Below, one piece after another: positions 1-53,591 of a stretch of 64,000 nucleotides of DNA. Positions within the stretch are counted from its first letter, which is position 1; the number at the start of each line of letters is the position of its first letter. This DNA is from an uncultured delta proteobacterium (lineage in GTDB: Bacteria > Myxococcota_A > Polyangia > Fen-1088): NCBI GenBank assembly GCA_963767925.1, contig CAVYGB010000010.1, positions 384,001 to 448,000 of the forward strand, given 5' to 3'. The notes below the pieces were generated by a model. It had not been told where the DNA came from. It did no database searches and worked only from the letters and a program-made list of their open reading frames with translations. The position numbers were made by a program, and so were the translations under genes.

Positions 1-1
1 C

Positions 2-463
2 CGCGCCCTGCTCGCCCACGGGCAGCACGAGACCCCCCGCACCACCTGGCGCCTCGCCACCGGCGATCTGCTGGCCGCGCTCGCCCGCGAGGCCACCCGG
101 GCCGACCTCGTCTTCTGGGATCCCTTCTCGCCCCGGAACAACCCGGAGCTCTGGACCGTGGCCGCCTTCGCCACCCTCCGCGCCGCCGCCGCTCCCCGCT
201 GCACCCTCTTCACCTACAGCGCCTCGACCGCCACCCGGGCCGCGATGCTGCTCGCCGGCTGGGCGGTCGGCGCCGGCGATCCGATCGGCGACAAGGCCGA
301 GACCACCGCCGCCGCGCTGACCGTCGCCGATCTCGCCCGCCCCCTGCCCCCCGCCTGGCTCTCCCGCGTGCGCCGCCCCGACGCCCGCCTCCCCCCCGAC
401 GCCCCCTCCGACGCCGCCGCCCGCCTCGCCCACGCCCCCCAGTTCACCGCCACGCCACCCTGA
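2..463 (+). CDS. MnmC-family SAM-dependent methyltransferase, C-terminal part (5' end outside window)
   Basis: Frame open from window start: ADLVFWDPFSPRNNPELWT...LFTYSASTATRAAMLLAGW matches the MnmC methyltransferase DxFSP..NPELW / TYS motifs. Confidence 0.75.
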   Translation, partial: RALLAHGQHETPRTTWRLATGDLLAALAREATRADLVFWDPFSPRNNPELWTVAAFATLRAAAAPRCTLFTYSASTATRAAMLLAGWAVGAGDPIGDKAETTAAALTVADLARPLPPAWLSRVRRPDARLPPDAPSDAAARLAHAPQFTATPP

Positions 464-586
464 CCCCCGAAGGGGGCGCGCGCGCCCGTCGACGGAATCG
501 AGGCTGCGATCCGCTCAGGTCAGAGCGTCAAGTCTCGCGGCTCATCCAGTCGTTGATCTGGTCCGCCGCCCGGTCGGCGAGCGCTG

Positions 587-1492
587 CTAGGAGGCGCGGA
601 AGATGGTGCCGCGGCGGAGGGCGCGGGGGGCGGCGGGGGTAGAGGGCCAGGTCGCGGTGGGTCGGGGGGTGCCCTGCAGGCGGGCGCTCAGCTCGGCCGG
701 GCTGGCGCAGGCGAGCGCGGACTGGAGGAAGCCGCGGGCGGGGTTGTTCGGGCGGCGCAGCCCCTCGAGCAAGGTGGGCGGCCCCTGCATCGCGTTCGCC
801 CCCGCGCACAACATGACCAGCTCGCTGCGGGTGGTGGCGCCGAGCTTGCGAAACACGTTGGCCAGGCAGTTGCGGACGGTGTTGCGGGAGATGCCCAGGA
901 GCTGCGCGATCTCGGGGTTCTGCATCCCCTTGCACACCAGCTCGGTGATCTGGGCCTCGCGGCCCATCAGGCCGAAGGCGGTGTCGGGATCGGGCTGGGC
1001 CAGCGACTGGCGCCGGCGCTGCAGCTCCTCGGCCATCTTGACCACCGGGAAGATGGAGTCCAGCAGGCGCGCGTCGGCGTCGGTGAACGGCCCGATCCGG
1101 CTGCGGCTCAGGCTGGCCCCGAGCACGAAGCAGTCGGCCACCACGATCCGCCCGATCACCGAGCGGGCCTGGATCCGGCGGTAGGCGTGGAACCAGGTCA
1201 GGCGATCGTACTCCGGGGCGTCGGGCGCGACGCACACGGTGCCCTGGACCGCCCGCCGGACGAGCGCGTCGGCCTCCAGCTCGCTCATGGCCAGGATGAG
1301 GGCGTACTCCTTCGGTCGCGAATGGCCGATCACCTCCATGGTGGTGTGCCCGACGGCGTCGGTCACGTGGAGGGAGCCCCCGTCGGCGTCCAGGCGCTGG
1401 ACCAGGGTTGCAAGCAGCTCGCGCTCGAAGCTCGCGCTCGACTGCGCGGAAAGCCCGATCTCTGCCACGTCCGAAAGCAGCCTCGCCGACAT
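587..1492 (-). CDS. LuxR-family HTH transcriptional regulator with N-terminal sensor-like region
   Basis: LMGREAQITELVCKGMQNPEIAQLLGISRNTVRNCLANVFRKLG is a LuxR HTH; GGAGG RBS upstream. Confidence 0.85.
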   Translation of the reverse strand: MSARLLSDVAEIGLSAQSSASFERELLATLVQRLDADGGSLHVTDAVGHTTMEVIGHSRPKEYALILAMSELEADALVRRAVQGTVCVAPDAPEYDRLTWFHAYRRIQARSVIGRIVVADCFVLGASLSRSRIGPFTDADARLLDSIFPVVKMAEELQRRRQSLAQPDPDTAFGLMGREAQITELVCKGMQNPEIAQLLGISRNTVRNCLANVFRKLGATTRSELVMLCAGANAMQGPPTLLEGLRRPNNPARGFLQSALACASPAELSARLQGTPRPTATWPSTPAAPRALRRGTIFRAS

Positions 1493-1612
1493 CCTCGCCT
1501 CCTACCCTCGAATCGTAATCGACTCGCCGGGGCCGGCAAAGAACGTCGCGGACCGATCTCCGGCACCGCCTGTAGCACGTTCGAGACCCGAAATATTCCG
1601 TGCTTTCCTTTC

Positions 1613-3148
1613 TCAGGGCGCCGATTGCAGCGGCGCTGGCTCCGCCGCGAAGGCCGGGTGGGCGTCCGTCCCGGCCAGGTAGCGCAGCGCCCGCCGGCCG
1701 GGCAAGAACAGGTAAGCCCCCCCGACGGTTGTCACGAAGCTGGGCAGGCCGAGCAGCCGCTTGCGGACCGGCTCGCCCTGGATGGTGAAGGTCCCCGACG
1801 AGGCCGGGTCGCCGGGGCGGGGCGGTGGCCCCACCAGCGGGTCGGCCTCGGCGTACAGCCCGTTGAATTTGGGGTTGTTGATCCAGGTGCTCTGCACGAA
1901 CTCGAACTGGCGGGCGATGCTGCTGTTGAGGGCGATGAAGGTCAGGCCCCGCTCCCCCAGCTCGGGGGCCGCCAGCATCGCTCGCGGCTCGAAGGCCGGG
2001 TCGAGCGGCTCGCCCCAGATCCGCCCCCGCCGCAGCAGCCGGCGCCGCCGGACCACCTCGTCCGAATCGGCCGGGGCCCCCTTCAGCCCGTCGCGCGGGT
2101 TGGCCCGGCGCACGTGGGCCCCGAGGGGACAGCGCAGGCCCTCGCGGTCCCCGCCGTAGCGGATGTCCTGCTGCCGCTCGCGGCCGGCGAGAGGATCGCC
2201 CCCGAGCAGCGACCGGCCGTCGAGACGCCGGCCCATCACCCGGGCGGCCACCTCCACGCCCTCGGGATCCTGCTTCGGGTCGCCCTGCTCGCGCATGTAG
2301 CGCCAGAAGGCGTGCACCTGTTGCCGGAGCTGCCGGAGCACGAGGTAGGTCCCGTTGCGCCCGAGATCGCGGCGGGGCAGCGGGTCCCCGGCGTGAGGGC
2401 CCTCGGGCTCCGCCATCACCGGCGTGAGGAGCTCGGCCAGCGGGCCGCCATCGGGCACGGACGGCGACCCCGGCCGGCGGCCATAGGCGTTGGGGTAGCC
2501 CAGCAGCAGCTCGCCGAGGGGGACCCGGTCGGCGGTGTCCTTCTCCGGAACCTCTTCGACCCCGATCTCCGCCTCCCTGACCTTCGGGTCGAGCTCGCGG
2601 AAGTAGGGCTGCGAGCGGCCGTCCAGGAAGCCGAAGTGTTCCTTGTCCGCCACCCGGGCCTCGATCTCGGCGACGACCGAGAGCTCGGTCCGGAGGGCCC
2701 GGAGCTCGGCCTGCAGCTCCGCTTGCCGCTCCGGCGCGGCAAAGAGGAACAGCACCCCGTGCACGCGCGCCTGGTCGGGGGCGCCCCAGCGCCAGTGGCG
2801 GGGGTCGGAGGGGCCCAGGTCCCCCAGCAGCCGCTGGCGGTGCGCGGTGGTCATGCCCTCGGCGAACTCCCGGGAGAAGGTCTTCAGGCTGTCCTCGGCG
2901 AGGCCAAGCGCGCGCAGGCCCTCGGCGGTGAAGGCCACGTTGATCACCAGCGCCTCCGTCGGGGCCGCGTCCGACTGCACCGCGGCCACCCGCGGGCAGA
3001 GGCCGGCCAGCCAGCGTCGAGCCCGGCCCGGATCTTCGGGCAGGGCGAAGACGACGTACCAGCCGGGAAAGCCCTGGTAGGCATGGCCCACCAGCCCCTG
3101 CACGTCCTCCAGCGGGACCTCCTCGGCGTCTACAGCAAGGCCAGCCAT
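1613..3148 (-). CDS. Dyp-type (dye-decolorising) heme peroxidase, 511 aa
   Basis: EHFGFLDGRSQP (GxxDG), NGTYLVLRQL, CPLGAHVRRANPRD (proximal His), RLLRRG (distal Arg), RQFEFVQSTW; ATG at 3148 overlaps the upstream gene. Confidence 0.9.
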   Translation of the reverse strand: MAGLAVDAEEVPLEDVQGLVGHAYQGFPGWYVVFALPEDPGRARRWLAGLCPRVAAVQSDAAPTEALVINVAFTAEGLRALGLAEDSLKTFSREFAEGMTTAHRQRLLGDLGPSDPRHWRWGAPDQARVHGVLFLFAAPERQAELQAELRALRTELSVVAEIEARVADKEHFGFLDGRSQPYFRELDPKVREAEIGVEEVPEKDTADRVPLGELLLGYPNAYGRRPGSPSVPDGGPLAELLTPVMAEPEGPHAGDPLPRRDLGRNGTYLVLRQLRQQVHAFWRYMREQGDPKQDPEGVEVAARVMGRRLDGRSLLGGDPLAGRERQQDIRYGGDREGLRCPLGAHVRRANPRDGLKGAPADSDEVVRRRRLLRRGRIWGEPLDPAFEPRAMLAAPELGERGLTFIALNSSIARQFEFVQSTWINNPKFNGLYAEADPLVGPPPRPGDPASSGTFTIQGEPVRKRLLGLPSFVTTVGGAYLFLPGRRALRYLAGTDAHPAFAAEPAPLQSAP

Positions 3149-4707
3149 TCCCGCCCCTCCTGCTCGGTCCGCAGGCCCCGGGAGAGACCCAGACGGATCC
3201 GGCTGTTCTGGTTGATGTTGTCGACGGTGAGCGACTTGTAGGCGCTGTACCAGAGCGCGGTGGGGACCTGCCGGTCGCGGGAGTAGGCCTTGAAGGCCTC
3301 CTCGTCCGCCGCTCCGCCGCCGCTGAGGTAGGAGGTCCGGGGGAAGCCCACGCAGTTGCTCCAGATGGAGGTCAACCCGCCGTGCGCCTTGTCGACGAAC
3401 TCGCCGAGGTAGGCCTCCCAGCTCCCGTCGAAGTTGCTGAAGAACAGCAGCCGGCGCCCGCCGTCGACGATCGCCCAGCGGGCAAAGTGAATCGACTCGA
3501 TCTTGCCCAGCTTGCCCTCGACGTACAGCCACCGGCTGGACATGGAGAACAGGTGCAGCACCCCGCGCAGCACCGCCCGGCGGAACCACAGCGGTTGCTT
3601 CAGGAAGATGACGCTGCTCATCTGGTTCTGGTGGACCTGGTCCTCGTCGGCCGCCAGCGCGCGGGCATGAACCGGGTCGCGCTGGATGATGACCCTGTCG
3701 TTGTCCGACAGGTGCCCCAGGTAGCAGTAGGCCAGCCAACCTCCCACCGCCAGCAACGAACCGACGGTGGCGAAGCCGGCCCAGAAGCCCCACCAGCCGC
3801 TCCGACCGGCCAGGAGGGCGAAGCACAGAGCGGTCAGCAGCACCGGCAAGACGACCAGCCCGGCGGCCAGGGCCCCGAAGATCGAGGACGGCAACCTGGC
3901 CGAGCGGTCCCGCAGCAGGCGGACCCACAGCGGCGGTCGCGGCAGGCCAGCCACCGGCCGCACCGCCCAGCCGAAGCGCGGATCCTTGCCGATCGCCTCC
4001 CGGAGACGCTGGCAGAGGTCGAGCGCGGAGGGGGGCGACTGGCGCTCGCCGAGCGCCTGGTCCAGCAGCTCCTGGATGTGGGTGCGGAGGGCGTCCTCGC
4101 GCCGGATCTGGTGGACCGACCGGCCCGGGGTGCCCACGAACTCGGTGTGCGAACGCCGGCGGTGCGCGAGGAGGAAGGCCCGCAGGTCCTCGGCCCGCGT
4201 CCAGCCGGCACAGTGCTGGAACAGGCGGCCGAGGCCGTCGCCAGCCACGGTCACCAGCTCGTCCAGATGGCGGCCCAGCGGCCCGTCGAAGTCGGTGGCG
4301 AACACGAGCTGGGCCGGGAGGGGTGGCTGGTTGGACCCGCCCTCGACGAGCAGCCCCTCCGGGCGCGGGTGAAGCAGGGCCCGGGCGAAGTGCACCGTCT
4401 CGAGCCGCAGGAAGGGGATCGGGCCATCGATCTCCAGGTCGCCGGCCGGATGGGCCAGGTCGTGCAGGACCGCCTGCAGCGGCGCGACCCGATCGGCCGG
4501 CACGTCGGCGATCACCAGCAAGGCGCGCTGGCGGTGGCGGTTGTCGCCCGGATGGGCGTCGGCCCGCTCCGCGCGGGCCACCTGATCCAGCGCCTGCCTG
4601 ACGCGCTCGCGGCGATCGGCGGACGTCGGTGGGATCAAGCGGGACCGGGCCAGGACCGACGGTTCCGCCTGGTCTGGACCGAACGTGACGATTCCGGCGC
4701 TGTCCAT
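3130..4707 (-). CDS. DyP-associated membrane protein with internally duplicated HFAR/FDG domains
   Basis: TVHFARALL...LVFATDFDGPLGRHLDEL and SIHFARWAI...LLFFSNFDGSWEAYLGEF separated by two hydrophobic helices; AGGAGG RBS; overlaps the DyP start. Confidence 0.75.
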   Translation of the reverse strand: MDSAGIVTFGPDQAEPSVLARSRLIPPTSADRRERVRQALDQVARAERADAHPGDNRHRQRALLVIADVPADRVAPLQAVLHDLAHPAGDLEIDGPIPFLRLETVHFARALLHPRPEGLLVEGGSNQPPLPAQLVFATDFDGPLGRHLDELVTVAGDGLGRLFQHCAGWTRAEDLRAFLLAHRRRSHTEFVGTPGRSVHQIRREDALRTHIQELLDQALGERQSPPSALDLCQRLREAIGKDPRFGWAVRPVAGLPRPPLWVRLLRDRSARLPSSIFGALAAGLVVLPVLLTALCFALLAGRSGWWGFWAGFATVGSLLAVGGWLAYCYLGHLSDNDRVIIQRDPVHARALAADEDQVHQNQMSSVIFLKQPLWFRRAVLRGVLHLFSMSSRWLYVEGKLGKIESIHFARWAIVDGGRRLLFFSNFDGSWEAYLGEFVDKAHGGLTSIWSNCVGFPRTSYLSGGGAADEEAFKAYSRDRQVPTALWYSAYKSLTVDNINQNSRIRLGLSRGLRTEQEGREWLALL

Positions 4708-4758
4708 GGCCCCCTCCTGCCGCAAGAAACTCTCCTATCGAGAAACGTGGACCCGCCC

Positions 4759-5328
4759 CTAGATTCCCGCCTCTCGCCGAAACGACCTTCCTGGGATCCG
4801 CCGGGCCCGGGCTGCGACCGGCTCGGTCTGGCCGCTGATCCGCCGCATCATCCGCCGCGCCCGCAGCAGCCGGGTCCCGACCGTGCTCACCGGAATGGAG
4901 AGGCGCCGCGCGATTTCGCTATACCGCAGGCCGCCGCGCGCGTGCAGCTCGAGCACCGCCCGGTAGTCGCGGGGCAGACGGGCCAGCAGCTCGTCGACCC
5001 GGGCCAGGGTGCCCAGCAGGAGGTTCTCCCGGTCTTCGCGCTCCCGGTCGGGCTCGGTGGCGGGCAGGTCGGTCAACGGAGTCAGGGTGACGTTGCGGTT
5101 GCGGCGGTGCCGGTCGATCATCAACCGTTGCATCATCGTCGCCAGCCAGGCCTGCAGGTCGGATCCGGGCGTGAACCGGTGCAAGTTGCGCAGGGCGCGT
5201 TCCAGCGTGTCCTGGACCAGGTCCTCGCAATCCGGCAGGTTGCGGCCGGCGAGCCGCCAGGCCCGCTCGCGCAGAAACCGTTGCAGGTTGCGAGCCCCCA
5301 GGCTCGTCGTCTCCGTCCGGTCGTTCAT
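4759..5328 (-). CDS. ECF-type RNA polymerase sigma-70 factor
   Basis: Region 2 (EDLVQDTLERALRNLHRF...AWLATMMQRLMIDRHRR) and region 4 (LPRDYRAVLELHARGGLRYSEIARRLSIPVSTVGTRLLRAR). Confidence 0.9.
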   Translation of the reverse strand: MNDRTETTSLGARNLQRFLRERAWRLAGRNLPDCEDLVQDTLERALRNLHRFTPGSDLQAWLATMMQRLMIDRHRRNRNVTLTPLTDLPATEPDREREDRENLLLGTLARVDELLARLPRDYRAVLELHARGGLRYSEIARRLSIPVSTVGTRLLRARRMMRRISGQTEPVAARARRIPGRSFRREAGI

Positions 5329-5407
5329 GGTCGTCGTTCCCCCCTCTGTCGATCTCCGGCTGAAACAACAGCTACCGCGCGACCGCCGGGGGCGAAATGG
5401 TACGGAT

Positions 5408-5440
5408 GTACCGGTGTCCGGACGGTGGGTACCGGTATCC
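5408..5440. promoter_or_regulatory. Direct repeat GTACCGGT(G/A)TCC, 21-bp period, in divergent promoter
   Basis: GTACCGGTGTCC at 5408-5419 and GTACCGGTATCC at 5429-5440, each with palindromic core ACCGGT. Confidence 0.45.
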
Positions 5441-5447
5441 TCGACCC

Positions 5448-6284
5448 ATGAGATTTTCACTCGTGCAGGCCCTGGCGGAGCTGCTCGGGCTGCTGGTCGG
5501 ACTGGCGCTGGCGCCGGTGGTGGCGCTCCGGACCCGGATGCGGCGCCGGCACCTTTTTCACGGGGACGGACGGCTGCTCGAGGGGGAGATGATCGCACCG
5601 CCGCCGGCCGGGTTACCCCCCGAGCTGCGGCCGTTCGCCCAGGCCATCGCGGGGGTGGCCCGGGTCCGCTTCTCCTGGGCCGGGGGGACGCCGGGAGCGA
5701 GGCCGGCGGGCGAGAAGCGACGGGCGAAGATCCTCGGGCTCAGCCTGCAGCTCGGCAACCCGCAGTGGCCGCAGCACCTGCTGCTCGCCACCCTCCGCTT
5801 CCGCAAGCCGCGCATCCCCGGCAACCCCGACGACTTCCTCGATCCGGACAACGTCTACGCGACGGTGCTGCGCCACCAGCTCCGGCAGGTGGGCGGCGTG
5901 TACCTGAGAGCGCGCCCGCTGCGCAAGCTGACCGGAGAGGGGGCGTTCGACATCCTGGAGCGCGCCACCCAGGGGACCGGCCCGCACCTCTGCCTGGAGC
6001 TGGCCCTGGCCCGGGAGCGGGAGCGCTGGGTGCCGGTGGGGCTCATCCGGCTGCGTCGCCTGCTGCCGGTCGGGGCGCGGCCGGCGGCCGACGTCTACAG
6101 CGATCGCGCGCTGTCGCCGGCCCTGTCCCCCTTCGCCGCCGCAGCCGGGCTGCGCACGCTGGGCTTCCTCGCCGGGCTCCGCCGCATCCTCTACCCGGTC
6201 TCCCGCTGGGGGCGCCAGCCGCGCGCCGCCGAGAAGAGCAGCGGCGCGCTGCCGATCAAGGGGGGGCGCTCAGCAGCGACTTGA
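5448..6284 (+). CDS. Catalase-fold-like protein, degenerate
   Basis: RHLFHGDG...ARVRFS...KILGLSLQL...HLLLAT resembles the catalase-superfamily pattern RxxHxxG / VRFS / D.xGxAxx. Confidence 0.5.
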   Translation: MRFSLVQALAELLGLLVGLALAPVVALRTRMRRRHLFHGDGRLLEGEMIAPPPAGLPPELRPFAQAIAGVARVRFSWAGGTPGARPAGEKRRAKILGLSLQLGNPQWPQHLLLATLRFRKPRIPGNPDDFLDPDNVYATVLRHQLRQVGGVYLRARPLRKLTGEGAFDILERATQGTGPHLCLELALARERERWVPVGLIRLRRLLPVGARPAADVYSDRALSPALSPFAAAAGLRTLGFLAGLRRILYPVSRWGRQPRAAEKSSGALPIKGGRSAAT

Positions 6285-8331: not shown

Positions 8332-8360
8332 GTCTTTCCCCTCATCCTCCGGCCGATGGC

Positions 8361-9536
8361 CTACAGCAAGAACGGGCCGGCCCGGGAAAGTTTCCCGGGG
8401 CCCGCGCGCTCCCGTCCGAGGTGGGGGACGTGGCGGCGGCGCCAGAAGGGGTGGCCGGGCCAGCGCTGCTCGAGGCCGTAGTAGAGCGCGCGCTCGCGGC
8501 GGTAGATCGACCACTCGCGGTCGCGATCGATCTCGTAGGCGGCCAGCGCCTGCGGGCCGGCGCCCTCCAGGAGGGCGAGGGTGGTGCGGACGGCGGCGGC
8601 GGCGGTCCGGAGGGCGCGGACCACGCCGCTGCCCGAGACCGGATCCACCGCCAGAGCGGCGTCGCCGACGGCGAGCCAGGGGCCGGGCGCGTGTGCCCGG
8701 CGGAGGCGCTGGCTCACCGCCGAGACAACCCGGGGGAGCTCCCGGGGGGCGGCGCCGCGGGTGCGGGCCTGAGTGGCGGCGGCGCGGTCGAGCCCCACCC
8801 GCCAGGAGGCCACCGCCGCTGCCCGATCCGAGGCCAGGAGGTCAGCGTCGGTCATCAACATGGCCACCAGGCCGTCGCCGGGCACGGGCGCGGAATACCA
8901 CCACCCCGCCTCCGCCGCCTCGACGAGCGTGTAGCCCTGGTCGCCGCCCGCGATGCCCTCGAACGGCGCGGCCACGGCCACCAGGCGGTCGAGCAAGCGC
9001 CGGCGGGCTTTCAGCCGGCGGGCCAGGCTGGCGGTCCGCCCGGTGGCGTCGACGACAACCGCTGCCTGCAGCGAACCCGGACCCTCCGGCCCGGCGAGGT
9101 AGAGCCGCCAGAGGTCGCCGGCGCGCTCGCAGCCCTGCACGGCGGTGCCGAGCCGCAGATCCGCCCCGGCGGCGGCCGCCCCTTCCGCCAGCATGCGGTC
9201 GAAGGCCAGGCGGTCGACGTGCCAGCCGCAGGCATAGGGCGACATCAGGTGCGAGTGGACATTTTCGGCCTCGGCCCCCCAGACGCTGCGGGTGCCCCAG
9301 GAAGGCATGGGGCCGAGGGCGGTGAAGGCGTCCCACAGCTCCAGCGCGCGCAACAGCGGCTGCACGGCGGGCGCCAGCGACTCGCCGATCCGGGGCTGAT
9401 CGAAGCGGGATCGCTCGAGCAGGACGACCCGCCGGCCGGCGCGGGCCAGGCCGCGCGCGGTGGCGGCTCCGGCGGGGCCAGCGCCGACAACCGCGACGTC
9501 ATAGCGGTCGTCGCCCGGTTCATGCGACTTGCTCAT
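8361..9536 (-). CDS. lodB: LodB/GoxB-like FAD-dependent flavoprotein (CTQ maturation)
   Basis: DVAVVGAGPAG, RIGESLAP, GWHVDRLAFD, DATGR, GWWYSAP, AVGDAALAVDPVSGSG; ATGA overlap with the LodA-like gene. Confidence 0.85.
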   Translation of the reverse strand: MSKSHEPGDDRYDVAVVGAGPAGAATARGLARAGRRVVLLERSRFDQPRIGESLAPAVQPLLRALELWDAFTALGPMPSWGTRSVWGAEAENVHSHLMSPYACGWHVDRLAFDRMLAEGAAAAGADLRLGTAVQGCERAGDLWRLYLAGPEGPGSLQAAVVVDATGRTASLARRLKARRRLLDRLVAVAAPFEGIAGGDQGYTLVEAAEAGWWYSAPVPGDGLVAMLMTDADLLASDRAAAVASWRVGLDRAAATQARTRGAAPRELPRVVSAVSQRLRRAHAPGPWLAVGDAALAVDPVSGSGVVRALRTAAAAVRTTLALLEGAGPQALAAYEIDRDREWSIYRRERALYYGLEQRWPGHPFWRRRHVPHLGRERAGPGKLSRAGPFLL

Positions 9537-12500
9537 GCGTCTTCGCCGCTGCTTCGTTCGCCCGAGGCCTTCGGGCGGCACAGCCGCTCCACACAGGCGC
9601 GCAGGCGCCGGACGTCGACCCCCAGGTCCTCCAGCCGGCGCTCGAGCCCGGCGTCGATGACGTGGCCGCGACCCAGCAGGCACCCGAGCAGCTCGCACAG
9701 CGCCTGGTCGCGCCCGCGCAGGTGATCGATGAGGCTGTCGCCCCGGCCGGCGGCCGCCCCGGCATCGCGGTCGCCCCCGCGCCACACCTGGACCGTCAGC
9801 GCGCGCTCGCGCGAAAAGGGCGTGCCCTTGCGGGTGCGACCCCGTGCGCGCACGCGCGCCCGGTAGACCCCCGGCCGGGGGAGGGCCAGCTCACCGGCAT
9901 AGGTGCCGGGCTCGGCCAGGGCGAGGGGGACGGTGCGGTGGCCGCCGCCGGGGAGCTCCACCTCGGCCCAGACCTGGGCGTCGGCCCTCGCGGGGATCCC
10001 CGCCTCGGTCAAGGTGGCCTGCAGGTGGGCCCGGTCTCCCGGCTCCCAGCCCGACTGCTCCGCGGTCGCCTGCAGGGAGATGCTGGAGTAGCTGTGCACC
10101 ACGAGGCTGTACGGGACCGCCCGGCCGGCGGCGGCGCCGGTGGCGCCCGCCCCGCTGGCTGCCGCTGCCCCTGCTGCGGCGGACGCCACCGGCGGACCGC
10201 CCGGCTGGCGGGCGAGGTTGAACGCCCGCACCTTCTCGTTGCGCACCCGTGGGACCGCAGCGCGCCCCAGGCCGGTCCGCTTGATTCCGCGCACGATGCC
10301 CCGATCGACACCGTCCTCCCGCCCGGGGGTGGGCTGCAGGCGCGGGTGTCCCAGCGTGAGCAGCGCGTGCCACAGCCCGCTCTGATCGAAGCGGTTCGCC
10401 TGGAGCTGCACCGGCAGGGCGAGCCGGTAGCAGCTCACCCCGCCGGACAGCACGAACCGCATGCCGGGATCACCCTGGGCCCGCCAGGGCTCGAGGATGA
10501 GGCCGGTCGGCGTCTGCAGGCGAAAGTCGACGATCTTGCTGTCGGGGGTCAGCAGGATGACGTCCACCCCCGCGTCGGCCTCGGTCAGCAAGAACGGCAC
10601 CCGCTGCACCTGCCCGGGGAGCAGCCGGCCCTGCGGATCGAGCACCACCTCGGCGTTGCTGATCCCCGCCAGGATCTCCAGGAAGTACTTCTGCAGGAGA
10701 AAGCGGTTGTCCCCGGCGATGGCCCCGCTGACCAGCAGGAAGCCACCCGTGTTGCCCGAGACCGTCTGCAGCGCCGGGGCGCTCGTGTTCTGAGGCGTCC
10801 CCAGGCCGATGGCGTAGGTCCGGGCATCGATCTGGGGCGCGACCTCGTGGATGTACCGGGCCCGGTTCTCCTTGCCGTCGGTCAGCACCACCAGCGCCTT
10901 CACGTCGAACGGCTGGGTGGCCGCCTGCAGGGCGCCCCGCCCCTCGAAGATGCCGTCGCCGATGGAGGTGGCGCCCTGCGGATCCAGGCCGTTGCCGGCG
11001 ATGAGATCCCGGGTGGCGTTGCGGTTGAGGTCGGACAGCCCGCCGCCGCCGAGGGGCAGCACCGGCTGCAACACCTGGGCGTCGTCGTTGTAGCGGACCA
11101 GCGCGGCGCCGTCTCCCTCCAGCATGAGGTCCACGAAGATGCTGGCGGCCTGCTGGAGCGAGGCGTGTTTGGATTGCCCGTCGCCCCGATCCTCGCCCAT
11201 GCTGCCGGACCGATCGAGCACCAGCGCCACCGCGGCGGTCTTGCGCGCGACGGTGTTGCCGGTGATGGTGACCTCCCAGGTCTGTCCGCTCGCGGGCTCC
11301 CGCACCGTGACCGTCTGCGGGTCGATGGCGGAGGGTGCCGCGCCGGTGCGGTAGATGACCCACAGGCGCGCCGTCACGACCTGGTTCGCCGTGGCCGGGC
11401 CCACCGTGACCGAAGGGACCGCGCCGACGAGCTGGGGATGTGACGGTCCGCCGCCCGGCGCGTACTCCAGCGTGACCCCTGCGCTGGGGGCGATGACCTC
11501 GAAGGTGATGGCCAGGGACTGCTCTCGCACCATCCCCATCGGCCCCTGGGGCACGTCCACGAAGTCCAGGTGGGGCGTGAGGAGGGCGATGGAGGGCTGC
11601 TCGCAGCGGTCGATCTCCTCCTTGCGGCTCCCCTGGGTGACAACGAAGCCGAGGGTGTGCCAGCGGGCGACCATCTCTTCGTAGTCGCCGATGTCGCGAT
11701 CCCACTCGACCCGCGTGGTCTGGCCCTGGGGAAACACCTCGTTCGGGCGGGGCACCGGCCACCAGTTGTCCGCGCAGGCCAAAAAGTCCGCCTGCCAGGG
11801 CAAGGCCATGGTGTAGGTGATGTCGCCCGGGCTGACCACGGCGTGATCGAGCCGGAAGGCGGCGGCATAGTTCGCCGGATCGAGGATGGGACGGGAGCTG
11901 GCGTCCAGGCCACCGGCCTCGATCCCGGGAAAGAACGAGCCGCCGGCGCAGGCCTCCAGGGCGGCGCGATCGAGGCCGTCGGGGGTGACGCTGGCCTCGG
12001 GCGGGGGGACGCCCGCCCAGTCGTTGAAGTAGTCGTTGTTCTTCCAGCGCTCCATGTGGGCGTACTGGGTGGCCGTCAGGTTGTTGTCGCCGGTGCCCGA
12101 GTCGTTGAGCTGGGGCATGTCGCCGCCGCCCGCGGGGGTGCCCAGGCGCGAGAAGATCCCGATCCGGGTGGCCTCGTCGGTCACGGGATCGATCCAGGCG
12201 TGCGGCGAGGTGCCGATGGTCTCCACCCAGCGGATGTCCCGCGCCCGCTGCAAGACGGGAAAGACATCCTTGCTGTACGAGGTGGCGCCGGGCGCGGCCG
12301 CCAGCCCGCCGTCGACCATGGCCTGCAGCACCCGATCGAAGAGCGTGATGGGGCTGTCCATGTGGGGGGCGAACTTCGGTGGCGCCGCGATGACCCAGGC
12401 CCCCACCACCGGCGGCGTCTCGCCGCCAGCCCGGAGCTTGATGCTGGCCCGGACCGGCCCGTCCGACACGTCGTCGTACCAATCCTCGTTGCCCCAGAAG

Positions 12501-12994
12501 CTGGAGATGCCCGAGCCGGGCGGCGAAGCGGAGGTGCCGAACCCGCCGAGCACCAGCAAGCGCCCCTGGTCGTCGGTGCGGATCTCCCCCAGGGGCACCG
12601 CCACCGCGGCCTCCCCGGAAAACCGGATGACCCCGCTGTCGAACACCGCCCGCTGGTCCGGCCCGCTCAAGGTGCGGGCGCCCGGGTCGATGTCGAGATC
12701 GGCCGCCGCCTCGGTGTTTCCGCGCCCCGGGTTGCTCGCCTTCTTGTTGGCCAGGTGAACCGTCCAGGCGATCTCCGCCTCGACGTCGGTGATCTCCTCC
12801 ACGGTGCCATCGTCGTGGTGGCCGAAGATGCGAAACCTCGCCGCCTGCCGCTTGACCCGGCACTGGGCATCCTTGAACCCGCCCGCCGGCTGGGGCCGCT
12901 CCCCCACCCGCTCCGGCCCGATGAAGAACCCGTCCGGGCTGTTGCCAACCCGCCCGATGCCAATCGCAGGATGAATCTTGTAGATCGTCGCCAT
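9533..12994 (-). CDS. LodA/GoxA-family CTQ-dependent oxidase fused to beta-rich, vWA and C-terminal domains, 1153 aa
   Basis: IHPAIGIGRVGNS, KRQAARFRIF, WYDDVSDGPV, CAGGSFFPGIE, PWQADFLACADNWWP; vWA MIDAS LDRSGSM...TSIGDG...VLTDG. Confidence 0.93.
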   Translation of the reverse strand: MATIYKIHPAIGIGRVGNSPDGFFIGPERVGERPQPAGGFKDAQCRVKRQAARFRIFGHHDDGTVEEITDVEAEIAWTVHLANKKASNPGRGNTEAAADLDIDPGARTLSGPDQRAVFDSGVIRFSGEAAVAVPLGEIRTDDQGRLLVLGGFGTSASPPGSGISSFWGNEDWYDDVSDGPVRASIKLRAGGETPPVVGAWVIAAPPKFAPHMDSPITLFDRVLQAMVDGGLAAAPGATSYSKDVFPVLQRARDIRWVETIGTSPHAWIDPVTDEATRIGIFSRLGTPAGGGDMPQLNDSGTGDNNLTATQYAHMERWKNNDYFNDWAGVPPPEASVTPDGLDRAALEACAGGSFFPGIEAGGLDASSRPILDPANYAAAFRLDHAVVSPGDITYTMALPWQADFLACADNWWPVPRPNEVFPQGQTTRVEWDRDIGDYEEMVARWHTLGFVVTQGSRKEEIDRCEQPSIALLTPHLDFVDVPQGPMGMVREQSLAITFEVIAPSAGVTLEYAPGGGPSHPQLVGAVPSVTVGPATANQVVTARLWVIYRTGAAPSAIDPQTVTVREPASGQTWEVTITGNTVARKTAAVALVLDRSGSMGEDRGDGQSKHASLQQAASIFVDLMLEGDGAALVRYNDDAQVLQPVLPLGGGGLSDLNRNATRDLIAGNGLDPQGATSIGDGIFEGRGALQAATQPFDVKALVVLTDGKENRARYIHEVAPQIDARTYAIGLGTPQNTSAPALQTVSGNTGGFLLVSGAIAGDNRFLLQKYFLEILAGISNAEVVLDPQGRLLPGQVQRVPFLLTEADAGVDVILLTPDSKIVDFRLQTPTGLILEPWRAQGDPGMRFVLSGGVSCYRLALPVQLQANRFDQSGLWHALLTLGHPRLQPTPGREDGVDRGIVRGIKRTGLGRAAVPRVRNEKVRAFNLARQPGGPPVASAAAGAAAASGAGATGAAAGRAVPYSLVVHSYSSISLQATAEQSGWEPGDRAHLQATLTEAGIPARADAQVWAEVELPGGGHRTVPLALAEPGTYAGELALPRPGVYRARVRARGRTRKGTPFSRERALTVQVWRGGDRDAGAAAGRGDSLIDHLRGRDQALCELLGCLLGRGHVIDAGLERRLEDLGVDVRRLRACVERLCRPKASGERSSGEDA

Positions 12995-13010
12995 GACGAT
13001 CCTTCAACGG

Positions 13011-13040
13011 CGGCGGCAGGCCGGTATTCCCCTGCCGCCG
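13011..13040. promoter_or_regulatory. Perfect 10-bp hairpin just upstream of the lodA-like RBS
   Basis: CGGCGGCAGG-CCGGTATTCC-CCTGCCGCCG; no U-tract. Confidence 0.45.
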
Positions 13041-13102
13041 GCGCTGTCGTCGCGCGCACAGGGGAGGAAGGACCGGCGCCCAGGCCGGCCCTGGCGGCCG
13101 GC

Positions 13103-14467
13103 TCAGCCGGTGCGGAGCGCGCCGGCGACGCTGCTGATGGTGGCGAACAGGGCGAGGCGGTCCAGGATCGCGAAGCGGGCGGGCATGAGCTCGCGCAGCT
13201 CGGTCTCCTGGGGCGTGCCCTTGACGTTCCAGTAGGTCAGCAGGGCCTCGGCGAAGTCCTCGGAGGGGTTGAACCGCGGGGGGTTGCCCTGGACTTCTTT
13301 GGGGTCGGTGTGCTTGGTGTGGCCATAGTTCGAGGGGTACAGGCCATCCGAGGCGATGGCGCTCTGCCAGTCGTCCCAGCGCTGGTCGAAGGTCCAGTTC
13401 CCGAGCATGACGTCGCTGAACATGTGGGCGGCCTCGTGGATCATGAGGCGGTCGAGGGGAGCCTGGTCGGCGGTGCCGGGGAAGACGATGATCTTGCCGT
13501 TCCCCCCGTTGGCGCCGCCGCCGCGGGCCGTGTCGCCGGAGACGAAGACGTCTTTCGTGTATTGCAGGGCGTGCGCCGGCATCGTCGCCAGCGACAGGGC
13601 GACCATGTCGGCGGTCGGGGAGTTGGCGGGGGGCGGCTCGGCGATGGTGACCTTGATGGTGCGACCCCGGAGGGTCACGTCGTATTGCTTGGCGGGGGCG
13701 CTTGTCTCGTCGACCCCGACGTTGGCGGTCACGTCCACCCCGGCCGAGACGGTGAAGGCGACCGCCGGTCCCCGCATGGGAAACAGGTCGGCGGCGCCGC
13801 CGGGCAAATACGATTGCTCGTCGAGGAAGGTACGCAGCTTCCCGGCGGAGGAGGGGCCGTCGAAGAGCTGCAGCTCCAGCATCCGGGTCGCCAGGGCTTC
13901 CCGGGCGCGATCGCTCAGCGGGTTCTTGCCCCCGATGTCCTTCATCAGGCGGAACTGGTCGCTGGGGTCGAGGTGCGAAAATCCCGGGAGGGTGGCCAGA
14001 TCGGTGATGGTGCGACGGGCGTTGCTGGCGCTGATGTCCGGCAAGATGACCAGGCCCGGGTCGCGCCCCGGGATGGGCTTCGCATCCCGGTGTTTGCTCA
14101 GCTCGTACACCGCCCAGTCCTGGGTGGTCTCGGGGAGGCCGCGGAAGCTGGCGCTGGCCGCCATCCGCTGCATCGAGGGCAGCGACTCGGGCGCGTTGCC
14201 CACGTCGGCCAGCATCCGATCGCGAATCGCGGGGGCCAGCTCCGCGAAACCGGGCGACGCCGCGAGCGCCGCCTTCGGGTCGCCGGCCGGGCGCTCCAGC
14301 CGCGGCAGTCCCTCGAAGCGCAGCGCCGCCTCCGGCCGGAAGGCCAGCTCGATCTGATCCTGCGCGGCGAGGGGCGTCGCCTGGAGCGAGGAGTCGACCT
14401 TCGACGGCCCCTCGTCGAACAGCTCGGGCGACACGCGAGAACCAGAGAGACGATCGAGTTGAATCAT
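13103..14467 (-). CDS. Putative zinc metallopeptidase (HEXXH) with helical N-terminal region
   Basis: LMIHEAAHM and downstream SNYG...NPSEDFAE; no signal peptide; start chosen at ATG 14467. Confidence 0.7.
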   Translation of the reverse strand: MIQLDRLSGSRVSPELFDEGPSKVDSSLQATPLAAQDQIELAFRPEAALRFEGLPRLERPAGDPKAALAASPGFAELAPAIRDRMLADVGNAPESLPSMQRMAASASFRGLPETTQDWAVYELSKHRDAKPIPGRDPGLVILPDISASNARRTITDLATLPGFSHLDPSDQFRLMKDIGGKNPLSDRAREALATRMLELQLFDGPSSAGKLRTFLDEQSYLPGGAADLFPMRGPAVAFTVSAGVDVTANVGVDETSAPAKQYDVTLRGRTIKVTIAEPPPANSPTADMVALSLATMPAHALQYTKDVFVSGDTARGGGANGGNGKIIVFPGTADQAPLDRLMIHEAAHMFSDVMLGNWTFDQRWDDWQSAIASDGLYPSNYGHTKHTDPKEVQGNPPRFNPSEDFAEALLTYWNVKGTPQETELRELMPARFAILDRLALFATISSVAGALRTG

Positions 14468-14943
14468 GGTGACCTTCTCGGTTTCCCCGCCCCGGTGTTG
14501 CCGCCGGCGCGCCGATTCCATGTGTCGCGTTTGGTGTCGGCCCGCCGCCGCCCCGTCTCCGGACGGGCCGGGACCGGGACCTTCCCCTGAGGGATCTCGC
14601 CCGGCACCGCGCTTCACGGTGCAGAGGGCGACGCCCGAGGATCTCGAGCTGCCTCGGGGAGGCGGCTCGGCGTGGCAAATGCGACGTCCTAGACCGCCCG
14701 GAGGGACGGCCACCACCAGCGGCGGCGGGACGAGCGCGACGACATGGCCCGATGGTGCGGGTCGCCCCTCACCTTGTCAAGCGCGCCGGCGCAGGGTGTC
14801 GCATCGGGCTTCGTCTGACGGAAGTAAAATTCGCGCGAGCCTTCCGTCGCGGACGGCCCGGGACCGCTGGCCCGGGCGCGGCCGCCAGGTGGACCGGCAG
14901 CCGGGGCTTGTGGCGGGGGCGGTTTAATCGGTAAAGAGGACGG

Positions 14944-16119: not shown

Positions 16120-16205
16120 CCCCGGATCGAGGCAGGGCCCCCGCTGCGCCCTGCCGGGACTCGCGCTCCGTGCCCCGCTGACGCCGGGGCGGCGTTACGG
16201 CGCGC

Positions 16206-17681: not shown

Positions 17682-17819
17682 GGCGAACCTCCCGGGAACG
17701 TCTGGGCCTGCACGCTCACACGATCGCCTTGAAAACGGAAGCGCGCTCCGGGGCGGCGTCGCTTGAGGAGAGAACTACGGGCGGGCTCCCTCCTCGCTTT
17801 CGACTTAAAGTGGGCGCGC

Positions 17820-36160: not shown

Positions 36161-36762
36161 GGAGCCTTGCGGTCCGCGCGCGGTCGTGTGGGGAGCGGCG
36201 GAGTGGGGGTCAGACGTGATCTTCTGGCCGTCCTTCGCGGCTGCCGGTGTCGTGCCGGTTGGCATCGTCGCCACGGCGATCCACCTGGTCTTCGCCGTCC
36301 TCGAGCTCTGGGCGTACGTGGCGCGCGCCTCACGCGCGACCGCCGCCAGCGGCTGAGCTTCCGTTACGTCGACAGGTGAGCCGGGGTGGAGGCCTCGGGG
36401 CACTTCGAGGCGGGGGGCGGGCCGGGCCGATGAGGCGGCCGGCTGCGGGCGGCATGGGTCTAGACGCGAGTCGCCGCCGCGGATGGCCATGGGCGAGCGA
36501 GGCCGGGTTGGAATTTTACACGGACGCGGATTGACCGGGAAAAGCCTGGAGACTCGCGTGGATAAGACGGGCGGGACCGCCCGGGGGGGCGCGGCGGCGC
36601 GGCCAGCGGACCCCCTGAACCGTTTCTATCGTGTGGTTTTTTTGATCCGATCTGCCCCAGTGATCGTACACGGACGGATAGAGCACGTGTGACCGCTTGT
36701 CGTGGTGCGCGAGTACCGCCATGGCCCAGGTAGTCACTCCCTCATCCCCCCAAGGAGTGCAG

Positions 36763-53438: not shown

Positions 53439-53591
53439 GGCTTGCGCTCGCCCCTGCCCGATATTCGTCCCGCGCGACAATCGTCTTGCCTCCGGTTCCC
53501 GCCGCCGTTGACGGCGATCTCGGCCTGACCGCCCGGCCGCCGGCGATTGGAGCCATTCACGCCAGGCCCTTCCTCCCACCAAGGAGAGTTC

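What the first reader, a model, noticed from the sequence alone, without database searches (positions are those of the whole stretch)
587..14467. Candidate undescribed peroxide/lipid system: CTQ oxidase-vWA, LodB, membrane patatin, catalase-fold protein, ECF sigma, DyP partner, DyP and LuxR
Seen: lodA-vWA overlaps lodB (ATGA) and the patatin starts 30 bp later. That unit converges on a catalase-fold gene, which shares a divergent promoter with ECF sigma -> membrane partner -> DyP -> LuxR. Established: LodA/GoxA enzymes oxidise amino acids and release H2O2, DyP and catalase folds consume peroxides, patatins release fatty acids. Inference: one regulated module linking H2O2 production to heme-dependent oxidation of membrane lipids or to protein cross-linking, e.g. 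oxylipin-like signalling, programmed lysis/defence or matrix hardening. I know of no described system with this gene set.
Basis: partly seen in the sequence, partly recalled or inferred. Interest (0 to 1): 0.82.

Follow-up and report, generated by a model that had tools for sequence, protein, structure and literature searches.

The report
Amino-acid oxidase operon beside DyP peroxidase cassette
The named genes are all there, but they are separately inherited gene sets that sit side by side only in this genome; the part worth following is a widespread, unnamed membrane partner that always accompanies one type of DyP haem peroxidase.

Summary
The gene layout is confirmed, and the 295-aa protein does have a catalase fold. 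A ninth gene, coding for an HExxH protein (13103-14467), also lies inside the coordinates.

- LodA-vWA plus LodB occurs as a self-contained pair in 3 other genomes. All three lack the DyP partner and the mini-catalase anywhere in the genome.
- In one sample of 400 other genomes of the phylum, 15 have a LodA-like gene and 12 have the partner. None has both.
- The LodA-vWA fusion was published in 2015.
- The membrane patatin has no close relative (best 36% identity) and no shared neighbours elsewhere.

The 531-aa "DyP partner" is the real finding.
- It has two ferredoxin-like barrel halves joined by a membrane hairpin, and no Pfam or NCBIfam family.
- It lies directly upstream of, or is fused to, a class V DyP in 23 of 23 other loci from two phyla.
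- A catalase-related domain is fused or adjacent in 3 of those loci.
- Non-homologous hydrolases (4 of 23), flavin oxidases (3 of 23) and second haem enzymes recur nearby.

Cooperation between an H2O2 source, a lipase and the DyP is therefore plausible here, but unproven.

The parts
587..1492 (-). LuxR-family regulator (301 aa): C-terminal GerE helix-turn-helix, N-terminal domain with no family
   Evidence: PF00196 GerE, E 1.3e-12, residues 178-228. 120-nt gap after DyP.
1613..3148 (-). Class V (C/D-type) DyP haem peroxidase, 511 aa, with no signal peptide or membrane segment by hydropathy
   Evidence: PF21105 DyP_N 28.8 bits (cut-off 27.5). TIGR01413 2.1e-20, below its cut-off. Nearest solved structures are 8RE2/8RE3 at E 1e-45, then DyP2 4G2C. 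D176 of FGFxDG, H345 and R373/R374 are invariant in 12 sequences. The ATG at 3148 follows AGGAGG and overlaps the partner's stop by 19 nt. Hydropathy.
3130..4725 (-). DyP partner (531 aa from TTG 4725; 525 aa from ATG 4707): two homologous ferredoxin-like alpha+beta-barrel halves, each with an HFAR...FDG motif, joined by a membrane helical hairpin (about residues 280-341)
   Evidence: No Pfam or NCBIfam hit. More than 331 relatives, all 'hypothetical'. AF2 pLDDT 84.7, pTM 0.83. VIA-align Z 14.5 to WhiE-ORFI 9LMN and 11.9 to AbxO 9LTX. H112 and H413 of the two HFAR motifs are invariant. The query's C-half aligns to the N-half of L034's partner (32% identity, E 1e-10). Hydropathy peak at 278-310.
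4759..5328 (-). ECF-type sigma factor (189 aa), first gene of the sigma-partner-DyP(-LuxR) string
   Evidence: Sigma70_r2 5.8e-14 and Sigma70_r4_2 7.2e-16. TIGR02937 1.4e-23. No anti-sigma gene recognised downstream; the next gene is the partner.
5329..5396 (.). 68-nt divergent intergenic region between the ECF sigma and mini-catalase genes. It holds one copy of the 11-mer GCCGGAGATCG (minus strand, 5360-5350).
   Evidence: Sequence read. A second copy lies at 1564-1554, 72 nt upstream of the LuxR ATG. There are 58 exact copies in the whole genome.
5397..6284 (+). Mini-catalase: 295-aa catalase-related haem protein with a hydrophobic N-terminal helix (about residues 20-48)
   Evidence: No Pfam or NCBIfam hit. 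Family of 131 representative clusters at E<=1e-3. Fold. Distal H55 and N152, the VRFS motif (R91, S93) and R262 are invariant, and proximal Y266 nearly so, in 45 sequences. The His, VRFS and Tyr motifs align to the matching motifs of 3E4W. Hydropathy.
6256..8331 (-). Membrane-anchored patatin-like phospholipase (691 aa): about 5-6 N-terminal membrane segments, then the patatin domain
   Evidence: PF01734 31.1 bits (cut-off 27.7), residues 324-550. GGGIR, GVSGG and DGG motifs are visible in the translation. Hydropathy. 374 relatives of similar length; the best is 36% identical.
8361..9536 (-). LodB-like FAD monooxygenase (391 aa), the expected maturase of the quinone cofactor
   Evidence: NF038171 maturase_LodB 8.7e-68, 229 bits, below the equivalog cut-off of 400. 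ATGA overlap with lodA-vWA.
9533..12994 (-). LodA-like quinoprotein oxidase fused to a vWA domain and a roughly 400-aa C-terminal region (1153 aa)
   Evidence: LodA_N 2e-58, LodA_C 2.3e-24, VWA_2 2.2e-08. C407 aligns with the Cys at chain position 516 of LodA 3WEU in PWQADFxxC. A DRSGS MIDAS-type motif is visible in the translation. GoxA and LodA equivalog cut-offs are not reached.
13103..14467 (-). 454-aa protein with an HEAAH motif; possible small zinc metallopeptidase domain at the C-terminus.
   Evidence: No Pfam, NCBIfam or PADLOC hit. ESM Atlas gives weak leads only (0.84-0.87; ATLF, Peptidase_M90, Peptidase_Mx1). No homologue beside LodA-vWA in L001, L002 or L025.

Best explanation
The 14-kb stretch is a composite of separately inherited units that lie together in an accessory part of this genome.

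Unit A is a lodA-vWA/lodB pair. It would give a cysteine-tryptophylquinone amine or amino-acid oxidase that releases H2O2, plus its flavoprotein maturase. Here a membrane patatin gene follows it in the same orientation after 29 nt, and an HExxH gene precedes it.

Unit B is a local variant of a widespread, unnamed DyP cassette. It comprises a membrane-anchored mini-catalase, a two-barrel membrane partner and a class V DyP. Here it sits behind an ECF sigma gene and ahead of a LuxR gene.

Shown:
- The partner and DyP act as one unit. They are adjacent in every locus examined and are often one polypeptide.
- The partner supplies the membrane anchor.
- All three haem or quinone enzymes keep their catalytic residues.

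Inferred:
- The partner holds the DyP, and here also the mini-catalase, at the cytoplasmic membrane, where they act on a hydrophobic hydroperoxide or phenolic or lipid substrate.
- The second haem enzyme varies between genomes: mini-catalase, P450, animal-type peroxidase or RoxA/Lcp-like.
- The patatin may feed the cassette with released fatty acids, and LodA may feed it with H2O2. That would be a lineage-specific arrangement, not a conserved system.
For: Unit A stands alone.
- Full-length LodA-vWA followed by LodB occurs in Rhizobacter (L001, 61% identity), Amycolatopsis (L002, 48%) and same-family genome G002 (L025, 57%). None has a homologue of any other window gene in the fetched flanks.
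- None of these three genomes has a partner or mini-catalase match anywhere.

Unit B is conserved.
- The partner is followed by or fused to DyP in 14 of 14 other loci of the own phylum and in 9 of 9 loci of a Pseudomonadota sample.
- 7 of 8 long database relatives are in-frame partner-DyP fusions.
- L040 and L041 are 1411- and 1409-aa ORFs with partner and DyP modules behind an N-terminal region; Pfam finds P450 in L040, the only one of the two scanned.
- A catalase-related domain is fused to the partner in L003 and L035 and lies one gene away in L020.

Co-occurrence at genome level, in one and the same sample of 400 other genomes of the phylum:
- LodA-like 15, partner 12, both 0.
- Mini-catalase 7, of which 2 also have the partner, adjacent in both.
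- Patatin relatives 2, overlapping with none.

Accessory region: the same-genus genome G001 has no DNA match to 587-14467 beyond scraps under 120 nt, while the flanking beta-lactamase gene matches at 76%.
Against: - Within one genome, a single-copy lodAB lying within about 5 kb of the single DyP cassette has a prior chance of only about 1e-3 (my estimate: 10 kb over 9.3 Mb).
- The neighbours of partner-DyP pairs elsewhere fall into the same functional classes as here. Hydrolases: L004, L034, L035, L039. Flavin oxidases: L036, L037, L039. L039 reads hydrolase - GMC oxidase - partner - DyP on one strand.
- N-terminal catalase-domain fusions to LodA-like proteins are published (PMC4417212). One in this phylum is a distant relative of the mini-catalase family (hhalign prob 82%, E 1e-5).
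- These points favour real cooperation over accident.
- G001 is only 86% complete, in 870 contigs.
- My neighbour census used heuristic ORF calls and scanned selected ORFs only.
Confidence: 0.55

Rival explanations
1. One reading: all eight or nine genes form one regulated system. LodA-vWA makes H2O2, the patatin frees fatty acids from membrane lipid, and the mini-catalase plus the partner-anchored DyP use that peroxide or the resulting lipid hydroperoxides. The outcome would be oxylipin-like signals, lysis or matrix cross-linking, under ECF sigma and LuxR control.
For: - Tight local geometry.
- Three of the proteins are membrane-anchored.
- The functional classes recur around partner-DyP pairs through non-homologous genes: hydrolase in 4 of 23 loci, flavin oxidase in 3 of 23, both together in L039.
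- LodA-catalase fusions are published.
- An 11-mer is shared upstream of the ECF and LuxR genes.
- The whole stretch is missing from the congener G001.
Against: - No other genome searched has both halves: 0 of 400 in the phylum sample, 0 of 23 partner-DyP loci, 0 of 3 LodA-vWA genomes.
- No patatin Pfam hit among the neighbour ORFs scanned, and no homologue of the window's patatin by BLAST in the 23 loci.
- The two strings are separate transcription units with a convergent gene between them.
- Pfam finds no lipoxygenase or fatty-acid dioxygenase among the 42 ORFs of the 64-kb window that I scanned, a heuristic selection.
- LodA-vWA, LodB and DyP have no export signal by hydropathy, so where H2O2 and lipid would meet is undefined.
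- The shared 11-mer links only the ECF and LuxR genes, not the lodA side.
Confidence: 0.25
2. Pure coincidence of neighbourhood. The DyP cassette serves peroxide or envelope-stress detoxification (hence the ECF sigma), LodA-vWA is a secreted or surface antimicrobial H2O2 generator as in Marinomonas, and the patatin is an unrelated membrane lipase. No substrate or product passes between them.
For: - Each unit occurs alone elsewhere.
- The neighbours of partner-DyP pairs are very heterogeneous.
- Relatives of the membrane patatin sit beside DsbA-like proteins, without any haem enzyme among the neighbours scanned.
- Roughly 250,000 windows were screened (figure from the search of earlier findings description), so rare adjacencies are expected.
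Against: - The mini-catalase is linked to the partner in 3 other loci, two of them by fusion.
- A detoxification role does not explain the obligatory two-barrel membrane partner.
- It also does not explain the recurrent P450, hydrolase and oxidase neighbours, or the sensor kinase or cyclase genes found in 8 of 23 loci.
Confidence: 0.2

Closest known systems
LodA/GoxA cysteine-tryptophylquinone oxidases with their LodB/GoxB maturases (Marinomonas mediterranea; PDB 3WEU, 2YMW, 6BYW), and the published LodA-vWA fusions (PMC4417212, Table 3)
   Same: - LodA_N and LodA_C domains are present.
- The cofactor Cys is aligned.
- A lodB-like gene follows directly.
- The vWA fusion is of the kind listed for Amycolatopsis vancoresmycina and Cryptosporangium arvum.
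   Different: - Scores fall far below the NCBIfam equivalog cut-offs for lysine or glycine oxidase, so the substrate is unknown.
- It carries a roughly 400-aa region after the vWA domain. In G467 that same vWA-plus-tail module is instead fused to a Peptidase_M64.
- A patatin gene follows lodB only here.
DyP subclass V4, P450 - transmembrane - DyP fusion proteins (Yoshida and Sugano 2022, PMC9719856; section 3.2 read)
   Same: - Class V DyP with a membrane-spanning region N-terminal to it.
- In L040 and L041 the stretch ahead of the DyP domain (behind P450 in L040; L041 was not scanned with Pfam) is the partner module (A2 profile, E 9e-92 and 6e-91).
   Different: - Here the partner is a separate gene, there is no P450, and a mini-catalase takes the place of the second haem enzyme.
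- The paper describes only 'some transmembrane regions', not a conserved two-barrel module.
- That L040 belongs to V4 is judged from its architecture, not from an accession.
Catalase-related small haem proteins: the 33-kDa protein of Mycobacterium avium subsp. paratuberculosis (3E4W/3E4Y) and coral allene oxide synthase (1U5U, 3DY5)
   Same: - Catalase core fold.
- Distal His and Asn, the VRFS motif and the proximal Tyr are kept.
   Different: - Shorter: about 250 aa in most members.
- It has an N-terminal hydrophobic helix.
- No PF00199 hit at E<=0.01.
- No lipoxygenase partner; it is linked to the DyP partner instead.
- That these relatives act on organic or fatty-acid hydroperoxides is recalled; for the coral enzymes it was seen only at the start of the abstract of PMC5617202.
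LodA-like proteins with an N-terminal catalase domain (pfam00199 / CD08152, group III; PMC4417212)
   Same: A catalase-related haem domain is associated with a LodA-like oxidase. One N-terminal extension in this phylum (L028) is a distant relative of the mini-catalase family.
   Different: - Here the two are separate genes, three genes apart and on opposite strands.
- The closest mini-catalase relatives sit with partner-DyP pairs or alone, never with LodA.
ABM/SchA-like two-domain alpha+beta-barrel proteins (WhiE-ORFI 9LMN; polyketide decarboxylase AbxO 9LTX)
   Same: Best structural matches of the partner: Z 14.5, rmsd 4.2 A over 225 residues, and Z 11.9 over 201 residues.
   Different: - Sequence identity is only 10-12%.
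- Those proteins have no membrane hairpin and no link to DyP.
- A shared fold says nothing about chemistry.

Membership tests
LodA/GoxA CTQ quinoprotein oxidases | LodA_N and LodA_C domains | tested here: met
   PF17990 2e-58 and PF18417 2.3e-24.
LodA/GoxA CTQ quinoprotein oxidases | Cys and Trp that form the quinone cofactor | tested here: inconclusive
   C407 aligns with the Cys at chain position 516 of 3WEU. The partner Trp (W411, W412 or W430) could not be placed, because LodA has an insertion there. That Cys516 and Trp581 form the cofactor is recalled.
LodA/GoxA CTQ quinoprotein oxidases | Adjacent LodB-type flavoprotein gene | tested here: met
   ATGA overlap. NF038171 8.7e-68. LodB follows LodA-like genes in 11 of 12 other LodA-like loci and in all 3 LodA-vWA loci.
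Lysine-epsilon oxidase (LodA) or glycine oxidase (GoxA) proper | NCBIfam equivalog score | tested here: not met
   160.9 bits against a cut-off of 600, and 207.7 against 750. It is a different subgroup of unknown substrate.
DyP-type peroxidase, class V | DyP fold signature; catalytic Asp and Arg; proximal His | tested here: met
   PF21105 is above its cut-off. 8RE2 at 1e-45. D176, H345 and R373/R374 are invariant. The roles of these residues are as described in PMC9719856. TIGR01413 stays below its cut-off (73.3 against 100.5).
Catalase-related (mini-catalase) haem proteins | Catalase core fold with distal His/Asn and proximal Tyr | tested here: met
   PF00199 itself gives no hit at E<=0.01 for the window protein.
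Patatin-like phospholipase | PF01734 with the GGGxR, GxSxG and DGG motifs | tested here: met
   31.1 bits against a cut-off of 27.7. GGGIR, GVSGG and DGG were read in the translation. The motif definitions are recalled.
ECF sigma / anti-sigma pair | Sigma regions 2 and 4 plus a cognate anti-sigma gene downstream | tested here: inconclusive
   The sigma regions are met. The next gene is the partner, whose N-terminal 60 residues have no family hit and low model confidence.
   0 of 400 other genomes in the phylum sample have both. 0 of 23 partner-DyP loci have LodA, LodB or the patatin. 0 of 3 LodA-vWA genomes have the partner or the mini-catalase.
Partner-DyP cassette (unnamed) | Two-barrel HFAR/FDG protein directly upstream of, or fused to, a class V DyP | tested here: met
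   19-nt overlap in the window. 23 of 23 other loci. Fusions.
Lipoxygenase / allene-oxide-synthase type oxylipin pathway | A fatty-acid dioxygenase or lipoxygenase that makes the hydroperoxide | tested here: not met
   No such Pfam family among the 42 window ORFs scanned, a heuristic selection. One other partner-DyP locus (L031) has an animal-haem-peroxidase gene.
Known anti-phage defence systems | A match to a PADLOC model beyond a generic helix-turn-helix | tested here: not met
   Only a helix-turn-helix-level hit for LuxR and a Rossmann-level hit for LodB.

The most novel reading that the evidence does not exclude
In this organism the juxtaposed units work as one membrane-lipid oxidation pathway. 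LodA-vWA supplies H2O2. The membrane patatin frees fatty acids. The partner holds a class V DyP and a mini-catalase on the membrane, where they convert these into oxygenated lipid products. An ECF sigma factor and a LuxR regulator switch the pathway. More generally, the partner module would mark a family of membrane 'haem enzyme pairs' (DyP plus P450, mini-catalase or animal-type peroxidase), fed by a lipase and a peroxide source. That would give bacterial class V DyPs a physiological role.
Probability: 0.2. Interest if true: 0.8.

Novelty: new variant of a known kind. Interest (0 to 1): 0.5.

Why it matters
The natural substrates and roles of bacterial DyP peroxidases are still unknown. This locus helps to show that one class of DyP never travels alone. 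It is always joined, as a neighbouring gene or as one polypeptide, to a conserved two-barrel membrane module that has no Pfam or NCBIfam family. The only related paper I found describes that stretch just as 'some transmembrane regions' (PMC9719856).

The companions vary: mini-catalase, P450, hydrolases, flavin oxidases, sensor kinases and cyclases. Together they give a concrete, testable picture of a membrane-bound two-haem enzyme set acting on hydrophobic peroxides.

The LodA part is ordinary. The claimed eight-gene 'system' should not be carried forward as a conserved entity.

Tried and rejected
- Metagenome scans for contigs with close relatives of the mini-catalase and of the partner found no confirmed relative.
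- The look-up of sequencing runs listed no run, and no RNA holder was listed, so co-transcription could not be examined.
- Complex prediction (DyP plus partner residues 60-531): the queue was full, and the tool was declared unavailable. Nothing was folded.
- hhalign of the mini-catalase profile against the long open frame upstream of the L030 partner showed no similarity. That extension is probably not coding.
- The L013 upstream gene and the L035 N-terminus gave only weak hhalign values (E 9e-4 and 1e-3), although L035 passes PF00199.
- hhalign of the partner profile against L037:10665-11342 and L006:10047-11066 showed no similarity.
- An ECF-type promoter pattern ([GT][GA]AAC-N15-18-[CG]GT[CAT]) gave no match in any of the six intergenic regions.
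- No tRNA gene in window 1-24000 and no long flanking repeats in 1-20000, so no mobile-element borders were seen.
- Literature: a search for 'catalase-related' + 'DyP' + 'operon' found 0 papers. A search for DyP-type peroxidase + gene neighborhood + hypothetical protein + membrane found 1 irrelevant paper. I found no paper on the partner family; these searches are narrow and cover only the held library.
- I did not determine the organism's phylum.

Full report
**Observation.** The window is about 72% G+C, so I called genes by third-position G+C and checked them against Pfam and NCBIfam.

These are the lodA/lodB ATGA overlap, 29 nt to the patatin ATG, a convergent 29-nt overlap of the patatin and the 295-aa gene, and 68 nt between the divergent ECF sigma and 295-aa starts.
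- The partner stop and the DyP start overlap by 19 nt, with AGGAGG ahead of the DyP ATG at 3148.
- A ninth gene lies inside the coordinates but is not in the title. It codes for a 454-aa HEAAH protein at 13103-14467. It has no family hit and only weak metallopeptidase leads.
- It shares a reading frame with lodA-vWA but is separated from it by two TGA codons. The LodA N-terminus begins at the canonical position, so these are two genes.

**What the genes are.**

- *LodA-vWA.* It has both LodA domains and a vWA domain. Its Cys407 aligns with the cofactor cysteine of LodA. Its scores are far below the lysine-oxidase and glycine-oxidase equivalog cut-offs, so the substrate is unknown.
- *DyP.* It is a class V enzyme. 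The nearest solved structures are 8RE2/8RE3 (E 1e-45), then DyP2 and fungal DyPs. The catalytic Asp, the distal Arg and the proximal His are invariant in 12 relatives.
- *The 295-aa protein.* It has no Pfam hit but belongs to a family of 131 representative clusters.
  - Its AF2 model (pLDDT 85) gives 184 PDB matches at E<=1e-3. Every listed row is a catalase or a catalase-fold relative, including 3E4Y and the coral allene oxide synthase.
  - The family profile finds 3E4W at E 2.3e-7, with the His, VRFS and Tyr motifs aligned (invariant columns).
- *The 531-aa partner.* It has no family but more than 331 relatives, all annotated 'hypothetical'.
  - Its model (pLDDT 84.7) shows two ferredoxin-like alpha+beta-barrel halves joined by a helical hairpin at about residues 280-341.
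  - The best structural matches are ABM/SchA-like proteins (Z 14.5 and 11.9).
  - Each half carries an invariant HFAR...FDG motif. The halves are homologous to each other.
- *Membrane segments.* Hydropathy puts membrane segments in the partner, the mini-catalase N-terminus and the patatin N-terminal third, and none in LodA-vWA, LodB, DyP or the HExxH protein.

**Is the set conserved? The LodA side.** Full-length LodA-vWA followed by LodB occurs in three other genomes: Rhizobacter sp. (L001, 61% identity), Amycolatopsis sp. (L002, 48%) and genome G002 of the same family (L025, 57%).

- In all three, tblastn with the other window proteins finds nothing in the fetched flanks.
- Whole-genome profile searches find neither the partner nor the mini-catalase in them. 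The same profiles did match.
- Twelve further LodA-like loci without vWA have LodB next door in 11 cases, and none of the other genes.
- LodA-vWA fusions were listed in 2015, as were N-terminal catalase-domain fusions (PMC4417212; passages read).
- In G467 the same vWA-plus-tail module is fused to a Peptidase_M64 instead of LodA. It therefore behaves as a transferable module.

**The patatin.** Its best relatives are only 36% identical, although 374 proteins of the same length and layout exist. The two relatives found in the phylum sample sit beside DsbA-like proteins, without any of the other genes.

**The DyP side.** The partner is directly followed by a DyP, or fused to one, in every other locus examined.

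- In the own phylum: 14 of 14 loci (L003-L006, L020, L030-L038). L005 is cut by insertion-sequence genes, and L006 is fragmentary.
- In a 251-genome Pseudomonadota sample: 9 of 9 loci (L039-L047). L046 and L047 carry the two halves as separate small genes.
- Seven of eight long database relatives are in-frame partner-DyP fusions.
- L040 and L041 are 1411- and 1409-aa ORFs with partner and DyP modules behind an N-terminal region. Pfam finds P450 in L040, the only one of the two scanned.
- That layout matches the published V4 subclass, where the middle part was described only as 'some transmembrane regions' (PMC9719856, section 3.2).

**The mini-catalase.** It is tied to this unit in three other loci.

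- A catalase-related domain is fused to the partner in L003 (PF00199 1.6e-6; mini-catalase profile 8e-13) and in L035 (PF00199 2.7e-7).
- A close family member lies one gene away in L020.
- Two other strong family members, L019 and L021, have neither the partner nor DyP nearby or elsewhere in their genomes.

**Genome-level table.** Four searches used the same 401-genome phylum sample, as shown by identical family denominators and withheld lists. Counts exclude the window's own genome.

| Query | Genomes with a match (of 400) |
|---|---|
| LodA-like | 15 |
| Partner | 12 |
| Mini-catalase | 7 |
| Patatin relatives | 2 |

- LodA-like and partner overlap in 0 genomes.
- Mini-catalase and partner overlap in 2 genomes, and the genes are adjacent in both.
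- Mini-catalase and LodA overlap in 1 genome, on different contigs.
- The patatin overlaps with none.
- One search ran with a stricter first look, so its count is a floor.
- The same-genus genome G001 (86% complete, 870 contigs) has no DNA match to 587-14467 beyond scraps under 120 nt, whereas the neighbouring beta-lactamase gene matches at 76%. The region is therefore accessory.

**Neighbour census.** I scanned selected, heuristically called ORFs within roughly 5-8 kb of the 23 partner-DyP pairs.

| Neighbour class | Loci | Count of 23 |
|---|---|---|
| Sensor kinase (Pkinase + AAA_16) | L003, L020, L030, L034 | 4 |
| Sensor cyclase (with AAA_16 and/or TPR) | L033, L037, L038, L040 | 4 |
| Crp-type regulator | L040, L041 | 2 |
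| P450 | L032, L036, L040, L047 | 4 |
| Animal haem peroxidase | L031 | 1 |
| Lcp/MpaB or RoxA-like haem protein | L030, L044 | 2 |
| Catalase-related | L003, L020, L035 | 3 |
| Lipase-like hydrolase | L004, L034, L035, L039 | 4 |
| Flavin oxidase family (DAO, amine oxidase, GMC) | L037, L036, L039 | 3 |

- No patatin Pfam hit appeared among the scanned ORFs. No LodA, LodB or window-patatin homologue appeared by BLAST in any of the 23 loci.
- L039 reads hydrolase - GMC oxidase - partner - DyP on one strand. It is the closest functional analogue of the window.

**Earlier notes of this scan.** Searches returned AI notes, which I treated as leads only. They describe the same kind of cassette in at least eight other genomes, including lipase links and a catalase-like/unknown/DyP trio. 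My independent observations agree with them. They raised my odds that the patatin belongs functionally with the DyP side.

**Regulation.**

- No consensus sigma-70 site, and no terminator-like site at a gene end.
- No ECF-type promoter pattern in the intergenic regions.
- One 11-mer, GCCGGAGATCG, lies in the same orientation 32 nt before the ECF ATG and 72 nt before the LuxR ATG. There are 58 copies in the genome. It is a possible shared operator, but a weak observation.
- No PADLOC defence model matches.

**Mechanism.**

- *Shown:* the partner and DyP are one functional unit, by universal adjacency and natural fusions. The partner supplies the membrane segment. The catalytic residues of the DyP and the mini-catalase, the cofactor Cys of LodA-vWA and the patatin motifs are intact.
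- *Inferred:* the partner tethers the DyP, and here also the membrane-anchored mini-catalase, to the membrane to act on a hydrophobic peroxide or lipid-derived substrate. The patatin and LodA may supply fatty acid and H2O2.
- *Not shown:* any binding, any substrate, or any co-regulation.

**Verdict.** The exact gene set is not a conserved system, and its LodA part is already known. The partner-DyP-mini-catalase unit is real, widespread and, as far as my narrow literature searches reach, undescribed.

Noticed in passing
window 53547-61237: A 2219-aa SpvB / TcdB_mid / FG-GAP / RHS-repeat protein is followed by a SUFU-domain protein. It looks like an Rhs/Tc-type polymorphic toxin with a possible immunity gene.
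   Followed up: no
window 36697-38475: One ORF combines a bacterial-like globin domain with DUF4394.
   Followed up: no
window 5350-5360 and 1554-1564 (minus strand); third copy at 42354: The 11-mer GCCGGAGATCG occurs upstream of both the ECF sigma gene and the LuxR gene in the same orientation. There are 58 exact copies in the 9.3-Mb genome. It may be a shared operator.
   Followed up: partly
L027 (G467:C2), ORF 8832-11750: Peptidase_M64 is fused to the same vWA-plus-C-terminal module as in LodA-vWA (37% identity to residues 469-1139). The module is therefore swapped between enzyme heads.
   Followed up: partly
L040 and L041 (Pseudomonadota genomes G574, G542): Single ORFs of 1411 and 1409 aa carry partner and DyP modules behind an N-terminal region (P450 by Pfam in L040; L041 not scanned). 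In L040 a cyclase-TPR gene lies on one side, and in both a Crp-type regulator on the other.
   Followed up: partly
L039 (G585:C13), 5365-13800: One-strand string: alpha/beta hydrolase, GMC oxidoreductase, partner, DyP and two unknown proteins (423 and 301 aa).
   Followed up: partly
L046 and L047: The two halves of the partner are encoded as separate genes of about 215-246 aa, in the order C-half-like then N-half-like, directly upstream of DyP. L047 continues with a P450 and a GST-like gene.
   Followed up: partly
G000 contig C10:927888-928916 (outside the window): A second, very distant catalase-related ORF of 343 aa (mini-catalase profile E 1.4e-3).
   Followed up: no
window 14944-19556: The genes flanking the region are a DUF2341/LamG protein, a GH28 pectinase-like protein and a beta-lactamase-fold protein. 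Only the DUF2341/LamG and beta-lactamase genes have DNA matches in the same-genus genome G001.
   Followed up: partly
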